In this document: one piece after another, positions 9,926 through 13,367 of the stretch
Position numbering within the stretch: the first letter of the stretch is position 1
Layout of the letters: every line of letters starts with the position of its first letter
Assembly: GCA_016197205.1 (NCBI GenBank)
Contig: JACPWG010000081.1
Coordinates: forward strand, 151,657 to 215,656
DNA: 64,000 bases
Direction of reading: 5' to 3'
Origin: Planctomycetota bacterium
GTDB lineage: Bacteria > Planctomycetota > MHYJ01 > WSZJ01 > JACPWG01
The notes under the pieces: generated by a model
Database searches by the model: none
The model's input: only the letters and a program-made list of their open reading frames with translations
What the model was told of the DNA's origin: nothing
Made by a program: the position numbers and the translations under genes

Positions 9926-10177
9926 ATGAAAGAATCGGTGATCTACCAAGACATCTTCCAGGAGGGCCGGGACGAGGGCCTCACGCAGGGCCGCGACGAG
10001 GGCCGCGCCTTGGCCCGCAGGGAGGACGTGCTCCGCATTCTGGAGCGGCGGTTCAAGGGGATGCCGGAAGCGGCGCGCGCGAAGGTCTCTGCGGCGGCCG
10101 GAATCGAAGCCTTGGATCGGCTGTTCGACCTGGCTCTGGCCGCGCCATCGCTCCCGGATTTCCTCGCCCAGGCCTGA
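9926..10177 (+). CDS. Stand-alone C-terminal module of Rpn/DUF4351-type proteins
   Basis: MKESVIYQDIFQEGRDEG..QGRDEG..LRILERRF..L..LFDLAL..SL..FL pattern; GGAGAGAGGGA upstream of the ATG. Confidence 0.65.
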   Translation: MKESVIYQDIFQEGRDEGLTQGRDEGRALARREDVLRILERRFKGMPEAARAKVSAAAGIEALDRLFDLALAAPSLPDFLAQA

Positions 10178-10255: not shown

Positions 10256-11272
10256 CTACCTCCCCCTGCCGTCCGGGGGCGACCCGCCGCCGGGCGCGCT
10301 CTCGGGCGCCGGCCCCGGGGGCAGCTCCGCCCCGAGCTTCGCACGCATCTTGGGCGCGTACGCCGCCGCCTTCTTGCCGAAGGGTGAGTCCGGGTAGTCG
10401 CGCGCCAGCCCTTCCATCGTCCCGAGCGCCTCCCTGCGCTTGTCGATGGCCCACTGGCAGTTCCCAAGCCAATAGAGCAGCTCCGGCACGTGCGCGTCCC
10501 GCGCGCCGGGGTCCAGCGCCCGCGCCCGGGCGAGCAGGGCCTCGCCGCGCACGTAGTCGCCCGCCTGCGCCGCCAGGAGTCCCAGCTCCGCCCGCGCCCG
10601 CACGCCCGCGCCCTGCTTCCCCTCGGGGTCCAGCTCCGCCGCCTTTTCCAGATGCGGCTTGCCCTCCGCCCCGCAGGCGACGTCGAGGTAGGCGAGCCCG
10701 AGCTCGAGCCGCGCCCGCGCGTCCTCCGGTCGCTCCTTCACCGCGCGCAAACGCTCCCGCAGACCCGGCACGCCGTCCACCAGGCCGCGGACCTTCTCCA
10801 GGAAAGTCTCCGGCGCGGTCACGCCCGCGATCCGGCCGTACGGCGTCCCTTCCGCGTCGAGCACGAGCAGCGTCGGGTGCCGCGCGACGTCATAGCGCTT
10901 TTCGAGATCGAGGCGCTCGAGGCCGTTCACTTGGAGCGCCACGAGCCGCCCCGTGACGAACTCCACCACCCGCGGGTCCGAATGCGCAGCCGCATCCTGG
11001 CGGGCGCACGCCTCTCAGCCCGGCGTGTGAAAATAGACCAGCAGGAGCTTCTCCCCGCCCCGCGCGCGCGCAAGCGCCTGCTCGTACGGTCCCTGCTCCC
11101 AGGCAATGCCCGCCGCGCACGCGAGTCGGACGGCGAAAAAAAGAACGCCTGCGAACGACAAGGCGCGGGTTGCCCGCGCTGCCGCAGGCCGTAGCGCTCG
11201 GCTGCGCCCAGGCGGGGGCGAGGGCGGGAGCGAGGGCGCGCGCGAAGGCGACGGCGGGGACGCGGTAGTCAT
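10256..11272 (-). CDS. Putative selenoprotein: exported thioredoxin-like (UxxC) domain plus TPR repeats
   Basis: ORFs 11015-11272 and 10256-10969 are in the same frame. Read-through gives KLLLVYFHTPG-TGA-EACARQD...YDVARHPTLLVLD (Trx fold). A hairpin follows the TGA. Confidence 0.75.
10983..11014 (-). promoter_or_regulatory. Candidate bacterial SECIS element
   Basis: After UGA: GAGGCG-UGCGC-CCGC-CAGGAU-GCGG-CU-GCGCA, a two-part stem with a G-containing loop; the GG begins 18 nt after UGA. Confidence 0.55.
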
Positions 11273-11346
11273 GCTCGAACTCCGTTCGCTGGAAGGGAAC
11301 CGTCGAGGAGGCCCGCGCCGATTGTACTGCCGGAGTCGGTCCGTTG

Positions 11347-11491
11347 GCGCCCGCGCAAGAATTACTTTACATTTTCGTGGATCGACCGATGCCTGGGGGC
11401 GCGGGCCACCCGCCCGCGCAGCGCGGCCCAGAGGGCCGCGCCCCCAGGAGCCTCGAGGTCCGAATCTGCGCAGTTATTTTTGCGCGGGCGC
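11347..11491. mobile_element. MITE family E, copy 1
   Basis: TIRs GCGCCCGCGCAAGAATTACT / AGTTATTTTTGCGCGGGCGC with TTG...TTG duplication; inverted homologue at 35998-36120. Confidence 0.85.
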
Positions 11492-11994: not shown

Positions 11995-13212
11995 TCAGGA
12001 AATGAGGGTGGGGGATTTCAGCACGTCCAGCACGACCGGGACCAGCTCGGGGTCGTACAGGGTGCCCATGCCCCGCGTCAGGATGACGATGATCGCGGCA
12101 GGGTCCCTCCGCGGGCGGTAGGGCCGGTCCGACGACATCCCGATCGCGGCCTCCGCCACCGCGAGAATGCGTCCGAGCAGCGGGATCTGCGCGCCCTTCA
12201 GCTTGTCCGGATACCCCGTGCCGTCGTAGCGCTCGTGGTGGGCACGCACCGCGGAAACGACGGCCGGCGGCAGGTCCATCCCTCGCAACAGCTCCGACCC
12301 CACGATCGGGTGTTGCTCCACCTGCGCCCTCTCCTCCGGCGTCAGCTCCCCTACCTTGCGCAGGATCTGCGCGGGCACCTTCACGTTGCCGATGTCGTGA
12401 AGCGTCGACGCCAGCGCCAGGCAGCCCTCTTGTTGCGGCGGCAACCGCATGGCGCGCGCCATGATCACCGCCAGTTCACGCACCCGCCGAGCATGCCCGT
12501 AGAACTCCCCGAACTCGAAAAGAGTCACCAGTCCCAGGACGACCCGGTGGAGCGCTTCCAGGCCGACCGTGTCGGCGCGCTCCCGCGCGAGCGTTGCGGC
12601 CTCGTCGGCGGGTACGAGCGTGCCGGAAACGGCGATTTCGGCGGTCTGCTCCAACTCCGTGCCCGACATCTCCGTCTTCAGGTCGGTGTCCACCTCGGAC
12701 ACCTCCGCGTCCGGAGGCAGCGCAGCGGACTTGATGCCCGCGTCGGAACCCGCGCCCGCGCTCGAGCCCGGACCGCCGCGCGCGGGCGTGGAAGCGGCCT
12801 TCTCCACGTCCCGAAGCTGGCGGGTAGGGGCGTGGCCCCGTCGCGTCGCCGTCTTCTTGCGGGCGGGCCGCTCGCCGGACGCTGAAGCGGCCGGCCTGGT
12901 GGGCGCCTCGGTCACCTGGAGCCGCAGCGTGATCCGGCCGATGCGGATGACGTCCCCGACCATGAGGCTGGCCTCGGTCACCTTCTTGCCGTTGACTAGG
13001 GTCCCGTTTCGGCTCCCCAGGTCGCGGACGACGACGCGATCGTCCACGCACGTGACCTCGCAGTGCCGCTTCGAGATCGAGGTCGAGTCGATCCGCAGCC
13101 GGCAGGTGTGGCTGCGACCGACGACGATCGGCCTGCCGTCCACCTCCACCCCCGTCCCCTTGGCCGGCCCGTCCAGCACGACCAGGCTCACGCCGTCTTC
13201 CGACACTTGCAC
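11995..13212 (-). CDS. FHA-domain HD-GYP phosphodiesterase
   Basis: FHA (VGRS..ISKRHC..DLGSRNGT) plus LHDIG and HHERYDGTGYP; GTG start preceded by GGAGG. Confidence 0.9.
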   Translation of the reverse strand: MQVSEDGVSLVVLDGPAKGTGVEVDGRPIVVGRSHTCRLRIDSTSISKRHCEVTCVDDRVVVRDLGSRNGTLVNGKKVTEASLMVGDVIRIGRITLRLQVTEAPTRPAASASGERPARKKTATRRGHAPTRQLRDVEKAASTPARGGPGSSAGAGSDAGIKSAALPPDAEVSEVDTDLKTEMSGTELEQTAEIAVSGTLVPADEAATLARERADTVGLEALHRVVLGLVTLFEFGEFYGHARRVRELAVIMARAMRLPPQQEGCLALASTLHDIGNVKVPAQILRKVGELTPEERAQVEQHPIVGSELLRGMDLPPAVVSAVRAHHERYDGTGYPDKLKGAQIPLLGRILAVAEAAIGMSSDRPYRPRRDPAAIIVILTRGMGTLYDPELVPVVLDVLKSPTLIS

Positions 13213-13367
13213 CTGTCCTCCACGGTCGCGTCGCGCTTGGCCCTTCGGTCGACGCCGACTATACCACGCGCTCTTCGGGGGCGGCAAGGGGGAATTCCCG
13301 CGTCGGTGCACGCCGCCGGTTTCGACTGGCCCACGCGCCCTTGTCCGGCTAGAATGGCGGAGAGCGA

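What the first reader, a model, noticed from the sequence alone, without database searches (positions are those of the whole stretch)
10256..11272. Hidden selenoprotein: exported thioredoxin(UxxC)-TPR fusion split by an in-frame UGA
Seen in sequence: two ORFs in one frame are separated only by TGA at 11015-11017. Read-through gives signal peptide + W..ALARA..KLLLVYFHTPG-U-EAC...PTLLVLD + TPR repeats. The stop falls where the first Cys of a Trx CxxC belongs, and a UGCGC/CCGC-CAGGAU-GCGG/GCGCA hairpin follows directly. Established knowledge: Sec typically replaces the first Cys in UxxC, and bacterial SECIS elements lie just 3' of the UGA. Inference: this is a Sec-containing, apparently exported Trx-TPR redox protein that ORF callers would split or truncate.
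Basis: partly seen in the sequence, partly recalled or inferred. Interest (0 to 1): 0.85.

Follow-up and report, generated by a model that had tools for sequence, protein, structure and literature searches.

The report
Exported thioredoxin-TPR selenoprotein gene
This is very likely a real gene for a secreted redox protein that carries selenocysteine at its active site, read through a UGA "stop"; it is a further example of a well-known kind of bacterial selenoprotein that gene callers truncate.

Summary
On the minus strand, one frame runs 11272..10256 with a single in-frame TGA at 11017..11015. Read through, it gives a 338-aa protein: signal peptide, Thioredoxin_7 domain with U-E-A-C, then TPR repeats.

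Evidence for selenocysteine:
- The genome has tRNA-Sec, selA, selB and selD, and no other UGA-reading tRNA.
- At the aligned column of 75 homologous sites, 42 are TGA, 27 are Cys and 6 are other residues.
- A 7-bp hairpin with a 4-nt loop starts 27 nt from the U of UGA. An uninterrupted stem of 5 bp or more occurs in 22 of 42 Sec forms, including this gene, and in 0 of 27 Cys forms.
- A covariance model built only from relatives hits this site as the top match in the window (35 bits, next 14.4).
- An AlphaFold model (pLDDT 87) puts one thioredoxin fold across the UGA.

It overlaps the hairpin that relatives conserve, and that one is the likelier SECIS.

Public protein data hold only the truncated 236-aa product.

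Verdict: a genuine but unremarkable selenoprotein, in a Planctomycetia-like lineage rich in thioredoxin-type selenoproteins. Function is inferred: a periplasmic thiol-disulfide oxidoreductase with a TPR client-binding arm.

The parts
10256..11272 (-). Whole selenoprotein gene: ATG at 11272..11270, TAG stop at 10258..10256, 338 codons including one UGA
   Evidence: sequence, ORFs, translation with TGA=U. Homologues align over the whole length.
11280..11283 (-). GGAG, a Shine-Dalgarno-like motif 7 nt before the ATG
   Evidence: Read directly from the sequence. Inference only.
11114..11272 (-). Long N-region plus hydrophobic signal peptide (residues 1-53). The likely cleavage site is after A-C-A, which aligns with the A-x-A sites of homologues.
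   Evidence: Alignment A2. The AF2 model has a low-confidence helix at 31-52. No signal-peptide predictor was available, so this is inferred.
10856..11101 (-). Thioredoxin_7 domain (residues 58-139); the fold continues to about residue 152 in the model
   Evidence: Pfam PF13899, 32.4 bits against cut-off 27. AF2 secondary structure. DsbD-gamma and DsbH structural matches with target-normalised TM 0.69-0.80.
11015..11017 (-). UGA codon 86, read as selenocysteine; first position of the U-E-A-C redox motif
   Evidence: Aligned with TGA in 41 other sites and with Cys in 27. Unchanged in an independent contig.
11006..11008 (-). Cys89, the resolving cysteine of UxxC; a nearly invariant column
   Evidence: C89 in at least 90% of rows.
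10980..10997 (-). Probable SECIS core: 7-bp stem and 4-nt loop (GCUG). The loop begins 27 nt from the U of UGA. It is positionally homologous to the hairpin of Sec-form relatives.
10968..11005 (-). Extended hairpin: a 6-bp lower stem around the SECIS core (-19.1 kcal/mol); this is the MFE fold
10983..11008 (-).
   Evidence: -12.5 kcal/mol, pair probabilities 0.29-0.37 against 0.36-0.40 for the family hairpin.
10874..10876 (-). Pro133, at the position of the thioredoxin-fold cis-proline; a nearly invariant column
   Evidence: It lies just before strand 134-138 in the model.
10325..10813 (-). All-helical TPR region (residues 154-316, eight helices)
   Evidence: Pfam TPR_19 and weaker TPR families. 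AF2 helices. Matches to consensus TPR and YbgF/CpoB structures.
10259..10324 (-). Pro/Gly-rich C-terminal tail (residues 317-338), low model confidence, absent from homologues

Best explanation
The minus-strand frame 11272..10256 is one gene for a 338-residue selenoprotein. The ribosome reads UGA at 11017..11015 as selenocysteine, using SelB with Sec-tRNA(Sec). SelB is recruited by a stem-loop inside the coding sequence just 3' of the UGA. That stem-loop is most likely the 7-bp stem with a 4-nt loop at 10997..10980.

The product is exported by an N-terminal signal peptide. It consists of a DsbD-gamma/DsbH-like thioredoxin domain (Thioredoxin_7), whose attacking residue is Sec in a U-x-x-C motif, followed by a TPR arm.

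The likely function (inferred) is a periplasmic thiol-disulfide oxidoreductase, either a reductase or an isomerase. The TPR arm would hold client or partner proteins. The enzyme could be kept reduced by the DsbD/CcdA-type membrane electron carrier found in the genome.

Shown here: the UGA, the conserved fold on both sides of it, the Sec/Cys pairing with homologues, the Sec-form-specific hairpin and the Sec machinery. Inferred: actual Sec insertion, export, substrate and direction of the redox reaction.
For: (1) Sec machinery in the same genome. tRNA-Sec scores 80.6 bits and ARAGORN calls it tRNA-SeC with anticodon tca. selA scores 541.5 bits, selB 332.7 bits and selD 399.2 bits, all over their cut-offs. 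Of 88 tRNAs the only UGA reader is tRNA-Sec, and the Trp tRNAs have anticodon cca.

(2) Sec/Cys pairing. In 85 loci searched, 67 gave 75 sites spanning the column: 42 TGA, 27 Cys (26 TGC, 1 TGT) and 6 other.

(3) Hairpin specific to Sec forms. An uninterrupted stem of at least 5 bp around a 4-nt loop at +27 occurs in 22 of 42 Sec forms (this gene has 7 bp), in 0 of 27 Cys forms and in 0 of 6 others. On 39 relatives, 79.1% of cells pair against 27-63% when the partner is slid, and 0 of 500 shuffles reach the covariation score.

(4) A covariance model built from those 39 relatives, with no sequence of this genome, finds 10967..11020(-) as the best hit in the window: 35 bits, E 6.6e-10, next hit 14.4 bits.

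(5) The AF2 model has mean pLDDT 87.4. Strand 76-82 lies before the UGA and helix 87-97 after it, so the two ORFs form one thioredoxin fold with U86 at the helix N-terminus. Structural matches are DsbD-gamma, DsbH and YbbN.

(6) An independent contig of run X1 covers 10256..11370 with 0 differences at word depth 16.4.

(7) In a 38-row tree this gene and its paralogue are sister (SH-aLRT 97) and group with a Sec form of another genome (88).

(8) A DsbD_TM protein is present in the genome (79.3 bits).
Against: - No orthologue closer than 40% identity was found. The closest relative is the same genome's paralogue, which has Glu and Ser at the U and C positions, so the redox motif is dispensable in that sister copy.
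- TGC to TGA is a single-base change, so a recent nonsense mutation cannot be excluded by sequence alone.
- The region around the UGA is no more stable than shuffled sequence (z +0.85), and two exclusive hairpins have similar probabilities.
- The covariance model also captures coding conservation, not only structure. Cys-type and non-Cys paralogues in this genome score 30.2, 19.4 and 16.1 bits.
- Loci were chosen by their stop status, so the 42:27 ratio is not a frequency. 18 of 85 loci gave no site spanning the column.
- Run X1 may be the sample the assembly came from, and only contigs, not reads, were laid.
- There is no expression or protein evidence.
- No Rfam family matches the site.
Confidence: 0.85

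Rival explanations
1. Pseudogene: a former Cys-form (or Sec-form) Trx7-TPR gene recently inactivated by a TGC-to-TGA nonsense change, or no longer expressed. The redox-dead paralogue would show that the clade is losing its catalytic function.
For: A single base separates TGC from TGA. The nearest homologue has lost both redox residues. No close orthologue was available to test purifying selection. Long open frames arise by chance in this GC-rich DNA.
Against: The stop falls exactly on the column where 41 other sites carry TGA. The gene has the 7-bp hairpin at +27 that none of 27 Cys forms has with 5 bp or more. Both stem differences from the family consensus keep pairing. Conserved residues continue after the stop: P133, G150 and the C-terminal TPR motif shared with the paralogue.
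Confidence: 0.08
2. Assembly or sequencing error: the true codon is TGC or TGT and the protein is an ordinary CxxC thioredoxin-TPR protein.
For: The genome is a 197-contig assembly at 90.84% completeness. Raw reads could not be inspected; only contigs were available.
Against: A second assembler's contig of 5706 bases matches 10256..11370 with 0 differences at word depth 16.4. The Sec-form hairpin would not be expected in a Cys form.
Confidence: 0.03
3. Two separate genes: an 85-aa exported peptide ending at the TGA, and a 237-aa protein starting at GTG 10969, as the public gene call has it.
For: The public protein collection holds exactly the 236-aa C-terminal product. A GTG start exists at 10969.
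Against: The split would cut the thioredoxin fold between strand 1 and helix 1 and leave the larger piece without a signal peptide. Homologues with Cys are single proteins spanning both parts. The same kind of truncated fragment exists for Sec forms of relatives (P0018, P0096).
Confidence: 0.03
4. UGA is read as another residue (Trp, Cys or Gly) by a changed genetic code or a suppressor, not as Sec.
For: None specific. Near-cognate read-through of UGA occurs at a low level in bacteria (recalled).
Against: The only tRNA with anticodon tca is tRNA-Sec, and the Trp tRNAs are cca. The complete selA/selB/selD set is present. In the sites I examined the in-frame TGA sits on the Cys column of the redox motif.
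Confidence: 0.01

Closest known systems
Bacterial thioredoxin-fold UxxC selenoproteins, for example NCBIfam NF041199 'Trx7/PDZ domain-containing (seleno)protein' and NF041383 'VPGUxxT family thioredoxin-like (seleno)protein'
   Same: Thioredoxin_7-type fold. Sec sits at the first position of the redox motif, with Cys-form homologues. The SECIS lies inside the coding sequence just after the UGA. The local motif (T-P-G-U here, V-P-G-E in the paralogue) resembles VPGU.
   Different: Scores are far below the curated cut-offs: 21.1 against 300 and 16 against 275. The C-terminal partner domain is TPR, not PDZ. The resolving residue is Cys, not Thr.
Cys-form exported Thioredoxin_7-TPR proteins, such as P0005, P0006 and P0008 and the tandem partners in genus g4
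   Same: Same architecture, length (about 310-345 aa), signal peptide and conserved columns. They are members of the same protein family.
   Different: They carry CxxC instead of UxxC and lack the +27 hairpin.
DsbD gamma domain and DsbH (periplasmic disulfide reductase domains; PDB 1vrs, 2fwh, 2ju5)
   Same: Best structural matches of the thioredoxin domain: target-normalised TM 0.70-0.80 and rmsd about 2 A. Profile matches reach E 1e-18. They are periplasmic and reductive (recalled).
   Different: This gene is not fused to a DsbD membrane domain. It has Sec in place of the first Cys and carries a TPR arm.
CnoX/YbbN chaperedoxin (PDB 3qou)
   Same: Thioredoxin domain followed by TPR helices. 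It is the top Foldseek match over the whole length.
   Different: The overall superposition is poor (TM 0.27-0.32, rmsd 19.6). CnoX is cytoplasmic and has an SxxC motif (recalled). This protein has a signal peptide and a Thioredoxin_7-type domain.

Membership tests
Bacterial selenoprotein gene (SelB/SECIS-dependent UGA recoding) | In-frame UGA with conserved coding sequence on both sides | tested here: met
   Homologues align across the stop, with invariant W58 before it and G150 after it.
Bacterial selenoprotein gene (SelB/SECIS-dependent UGA recoding) | UGA aligns with Cys in homologues, and other homologues carry TGA at the same column. Criteria as quoted in PMC1976440: at least two Cys homologues, and at least two sequences with a conserved TGA. 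| tested here: met
   of 75 sites, 42 TGA, 27 Cys and 6 other. Passages of PMC1976440 read.
Bacterial selenoprotein gene (SelB/SECIS-dependent UGA recoding) | Stem-loop immediately 3' of the UGA with a guanosine in the apical loop | tested here: met
   A 7-bp stem with loop GCUG at +27, shared with Sec-form relatives and absent from Cys forms. Caveats: it is no more stable than shuffles, and a competing hairpin exists. bSECISearch was not available.
Bacterial selenoprotein gene (SelB/SECIS-dependent UGA recoding) | selA, selB, selC (tRNA-Sec) and selD in the genome | tested here: met
   all four are over their curated cut-offs.
Bacterial selenoprotein gene (SelB/SECIS-dependent UGA recoding) | Selenium physically present in the protein | not testable with these tools
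   Needs 75Se labelling or mass spectrometry.
Thioredoxin_7 (PF13899) / thioredoxin fold | Profile score over Pfam's gathering cut-off | tested here: met
   32.4 bits against 27, residues 58-139, with U read as C.
Thioredoxin_7 (PF13899) / thioredoxin fold | Redox dyad at the N-terminus of helix 1, and a proline at the cis-Pro position | tested here: met
   U86 and C89 lie at the start of helix 87-97. P133 lies before strand 134-138. Both C89 and P133 are at least 90% conserved. The cis conformation itself was not examined.
TPR repeat proteins | Profile match and paired-helix repeats | tested here: met
   TPR_19 scores 25.3 against 25, which is marginal. Eight helices span 154-316. Consensus-TPR structures match.
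NCBIfam curated thioredoxin-type selenoprotein families (NF041199, NF041383, NF045694) | Score over the curated cut-off | tested here: not met
   21.1 against 300, 16 against 275 and 24.9 against 805. The 21 family members match these models only weakly: at E 0.001 or better, 15, 8 and 21 of them respectively, best E 6.6e-21.
CnoX/YbbN chaperedoxins | Cytoplasmic thioredoxin-TPR protein without a signal peptide | tested here: not met
   An N-terminal hydrophobic signal sequence aligns with those of homologues. The structural match covers architecture only (TM 0.27-0.32). CnoX's location and SxxC motif are recalled.
DsbD (thiol:disulfide interchange protein) | Gamma domain fused to the DsbD transmembrane domain | tested here: not met
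   No DsbD_TM match in this protein. NF001419 scores 20 bits against 330. A separate DsbD_TM gene lies elsewhere in the genome.

The most novel reading that the evidence does not exclude
The gene belongs to a lineage-wide expansion of exported Thioredoxin_7-type selenoproteins in Planctomycetia-like bacteria. This genome has at least nine such UGA sites.

These genes share one coding-embedded SECIS design: a 7-bp stem closed by C-G, with a G-initial tetraloop 24 nt after the UGA. The design has been carried along by gene duplication and constrains the protein motif it encodes.

Sec, Cys and redox-dead paralogues sit side by side and could form a selenium-responsive periplasmic redox network. 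The Trx7-TPR architecture would be a selenoprotein family not yet covered by a curated model.
Probability: 0.3. Interest if true: 0.55.

Novelty: new member of a known kind. Interest (0 to 1): 0.4.

Why it matters
- It corrects an annotation. The public protein collection holds only a 236-aa fragment that lacks the signal peptide and the active site, and Sec forms of relatives are truncated in the same way.
- It adds a secreted thioredoxin-TPR architecture to the list of thioredoxin-fold selenoproteins.
- It gives a lineage-specific SECIS pattern. In this genome the pattern picked out eight further candidate selenoprotein sites, which is useful for annotating selenoproteomes of uncultured Planctomycetia-like bacteria.
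- It does not change what is known about how selenocysteine is decoded.

Tried and rejected
- **Rfam.** A permissive scan of 10700..11300 and a gathering-threshold scan of the whole window gave no SECIS or other family. I cannot say whether Rfam holds a model for this kind of bacterial SECIS.
- **Thermodynamics.** This did not discriminate.
- **Homologue searches.** The word-based protein search found only the window's own fragment and one weak hit. Scanning genome contigs with the protein found nothing. A relative's protein then gave two records titled 'uncultured Planctomycetia bacterium'.
- **Representatives search.** The top of the list was dominated by long TPR proteins. Of its best 150 I read 24 and used 17 in the tree.
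- **Neighbouring genes.** RuvX, an 83-aa ORF with no Pfam family and an FHA/HD-GYP protein suggest no operon link. The promoter and terminator scan gave nothing above shuffles.
- **RNA evidence.** No RNA holder was listed for this stretch. X2 and X3 hold next to none of its words.
- **Literature.** Two searches and term look-ups were made. In the 2026 review PMC13188914, the terms TPR, tetratricopeptide, Planctomycet and periplasm each occur 0 times in the main text. No description of a Trx7-TPR selenoprotein turned up. Supplements are closed, for example S9 Table of PMC4807772, which lists planctomycete selenoprotein candidates, and the family tables behind the review. I therefore do not claim it is not in print.
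- **Not used.** Complex prediction, the protein atlas, and bSECISearch (not available).

Full report
**Observation**

On the minus strand an 85-codon ORF starts at ATG 11272 and ends ...KLLLVYFHTPG. It is followed in the same frame by TGA at 11017..11015. The frame then stays open for 252 more codons to TAG at 10258..10256. Read with TGA=U, the product has 338 residues and the motif U86-E-A-C89. With U read as C, Pfam gives Thioredoxin_7 at residues 58-139 (32.4 bits, cut-off 27) and TPR_19 (25.3 bits, cut-off 25), plus weaker thioredoxin and TPR families.

**Sec machinery**

The window lies in a 9.1-Mb, 197-contig genome (completeness 90.84%). That genome holds:
- a tRNA-Sec (Rfam RF01852, 80.6 bits; ARAGORN calls it tRNA-SeC with anticodon tca);
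- selA (541.5 bits), selB (332.7 bits) and selD (399.2 bits, itself with one in-frame TGA), all over their curated cut-offs.

ARAGORN over the whole genome finds 88 tRNAs. The only one reading UGA is tRNA-Sec, and the two Trp tRNAs have anticodon cca. A changed genetic code is therefore not the explanation.

**Homologues**

A six-frame search of 41 genomes (this one and 40 relatives) found matches in 28. Many matches carry exactly one in-frame TGA.

I fetched 20 best loci automatically. I picked 60 more from that table by their stop status, 40 labelled '1 TGA' and 20 labelled 'none', not by any RNA feature. I added five regions of the own genome.

Of these 85 loci, 67 gave 75 sites with a tblastn alignment spanning column 86. 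The other 18 gave none and were dropped. At that column:
- 42 sites are TGA, including this gene;
- 27 are Cys (26 TGC, 1 TGT);
- 6 are other residues.

Because of how I picked loci, this ratio is not a frequency. The point is that the stop falls exactly on a Sec/Cys column. The field's usual criteria ask for at least two Cys homologues and at least two sequences with a conserved TGA (passages of PMC1976440), and these are met.

The full-length family (alignment A2, 21 rows) shares a signal peptide ending A-x-A, an invariant Trp (W58), the second Cys (C89), the proline at the cis-Pro position (P133), G150 and TPR motifs to the C-terminus.

The nearest homologue is a paralogue in the same genome at 39-40% identity.

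In a quick maximum-likelihood tree of 38 rows (the 21 of A2 plus 17 full-length representatives I chose out of the 150 listed), this gene and the paralogue are sisters (SH-aLRT 97). Together they group with a Sec form from another genome (88). Sec and Cys states interchange many times across the tree.

**The SECIS**

Folding the 63 nt after each TGA showed that Sec-form relatives share a hairpin with a 4-nt loop beginning 27 nt from the U of UGA. It is typically a 7-8 bp stem closed by C-G, with a G-initial loop.

A direct pairing test gave an uninterrupted stem of at least 5 bp at that place in:
- 22 of 42 Sec forms;
- 0 of 27 Cys forms;
- 0 of 6 others.

The window's gene has 7 bp and its redox-dead paralogue has 3. 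Several further Sec forms have the stem with a bulge or shifted by one base.

On an ungapped alignment of 39 relatives (none from this genome; one duplicate dropped), 79.1% of cells pair, against 27-63% when the 3' partner is slid. 0 of 500 shuffles reach the observed pairing or covariation score. Only 12 cells in 4 pairs change on both sides, so covariation support is modest and the relatives are not independent.

A covariance model built from those 39 sequences finds 10967..11020(-) as the best hit of the 64-kb window, at 35 bits and E 6.6e-10. The next hit scores 14.4 bits. The model also encodes the conserved codons, so part of that score is protein homology. The thioredoxin paralogues of this genome that lack the TGA score 30.2, 19.4 and 16.1 bits.

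In this gene the encoded residues at the hairpin have diverged: Q-D-A-A-A-H-S, where relatives have M-D-T-D-T-Y-P. Yet both stem differences from the consensus keep pairing (G-U to G-C, and G-C to G-U).

The family hairpin is -8.4 kcal/mol alone and -19.1 with a 6-bp lower stem, and that extended form is the MFE fold.

Energetics cannot decide between them, and the whole region is no more stable than shuffles (z +0.85). Comparison with relatives favours the +27 hairpin. [quoted passage not shown] Both candidates fit that loose description.

**Fold**

AlphaFold2 on alignment A2 gives mean pLDDT 87.4, with values above 95 over residues 60-310. It shows a low-confidence N-terminal helix (31-52, the signal sequence). 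A thioredoxin fold follows, with strand 76-82 before the UGA and helix 87-97 directly after it, and then eight TPR-type helices. The two ORFs are thus halves of one domain.

Foldseek against the PDB ranks E. coli YbbN/CnoX first. It has the same thioredoxin-plus-TPR architecture, but the global fit is poor (TM 0.27-0.32). DsbD-gamma, DsbH and an exported cytochrome c biogenesis-related domain follow, with target-normalised TM 0.69-0.80 at about 2 A. Profile search of PDB sequences agrees.

**Is the TGA real?**

One public run holds the stretch. A 5706-base contig made by a different assembler covers 10256..11370 with no difference, at word depth 16.4. The run may be the source sample, and raw reads were not available, so this excludes an assembler artefact but not a systematic read error.

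**Annotation state**

The large protein collection holds only the 236-aa C-terminal product of this gene. The representative library holds fragments of relatives' Sec forms that begin just after the U (P0018, P0096). It also holds many full-length Cys forms and forms with Arg at the first position.

No NCBIfam model reaches its cut-off. The best are TsoB's DsbD-like end at 24.9 against 805, the Trx7/PDZ (seleno)protein at 21.1 against 300, and VPGUxxT type 2 at 16 against 275.

**Lineage and context**

Two relatives' records are titled 'uncultured Planctomycetia bacterium'. Sec use in planctomycetes is in print (passages of PMC4807772).

The gene appears monocistronic. Its neighbours are ruvX, an unassigned 83-aa ORF on the other strand, and an FHA/HD-GYP gene 720 nt upstream.

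The genome has one DsbD_TM-type protein, a candidate electron donor.

Of the ten best own-genome hits of the covariance model (23 bits or more), nine have TGA at the model's UGA position with open frames on both sides. Seven have UxxC, including this gene, and two have UxxG.

**Mechanism and verdict**

Shown: a UGA on a Sec/Cys column, inside one conserved thioredoxin fold, followed by the hairpin that marks Sec forms in relatives, in a genome with the full Sec apparatus.

Inferred:
- SelB-dependent insertion of Sec;
- export by the signal peptide;
- a periplasmic reductase or isomerase role in which Sec86 attacks substrate disulfides, Cys89 resolves them, and the TPR arm binds clients or partners.

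I put 0.85 on a genuine selenoprotein. The remainder goes mostly to a recent nonsense mutation. Thioredoxin-fold UxxC selenoproteins with Cys homologues are a long-known class, so this is a new member of a known kind, of moderate interest.

I found no printed description of the Trx7-TPR architecture as a selenoprotein (searches; look-up). Supplementary tables were closed, so I make no claim of absence.

Noticed in passing
window 11346-11480 (just upstream of the gene): A roughly 135-nt GC-rich element with pairing ends occurs more than 200 times in the own genome: blastn-short gave 534 hit segments and per-base coverage of about 200-440. It folds strongly (-77.2 kcal/mol, z -3.1) and has very high summed depth across about 190 contigs of run X1. 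It looks like a MITE/REP-type interspersed repeat, and no Rfam family matches it.
   Followed up: partly
G000:C41:18035-18955 (L018): The selD match (399.2 bits) contains one in-frame TGA, so selenophosphate synthetase is probably itself a selenoprotein here.
   Followed up: no
G000: C134:15500-15553, C139:4456-4509, C102:6470-6523, C12:153190-153243, C12:152672-152725, C74:72484-72537, C13:129707-129760, C15:57856-57909: Eight further sites in the same genome match the relatives' UGA-plus-hairpin model and have TGA at the model's UGA position with open frames on both sides. Six have UxxC; those at C13 and C15 have UxxG. The C134 site lies in a long frame, 347 aa before and 418 aa after the TGA. 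All are candidate selenoproteins, and their domains were not analysed.
   Followed up: partly
G000:C131:5897-6772 (L100:598-1473): A 292-aa paralogue of the finding (39-40% identity, same signal peptide and TPR tail) has V-P-G-E-L-E-S where the finding has T-P-G-U-E-A-C. It is a redox-dead copy.
   Followed up: partly
L022, L027, L028, L031, L041 (genus g4 genomes G003, G010, G005, G007, G009): A Cys-form and a Sec-form Trx7-TPR gene lie in tandem on the same strand, about 10 bases apart or slightly overlapping. In L023 (G006) both tandem copies are Sec forms, and in L030 (G008) both are Cys forms.
   Followed up: partly
window 11995-13311 (-): A 438-aa protein with an FHA domain followed by an HD_5/HD-GYP-type domain, upstream on the same strand. 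No link to the finding is evident.
   Followed up: no
window 9926-10177 (+): An 83-aa ORF between ruvX and the finding matches no Pfam family. It may be a spurious frame in GC-rich DNA.
   Followed up: no
whole genome G000: ARAGORN reports three 'tRNA-???' predictions with irregular anticodon loops, written (ag), (aggg) and (tc). They were not examined.
   Followed up: no
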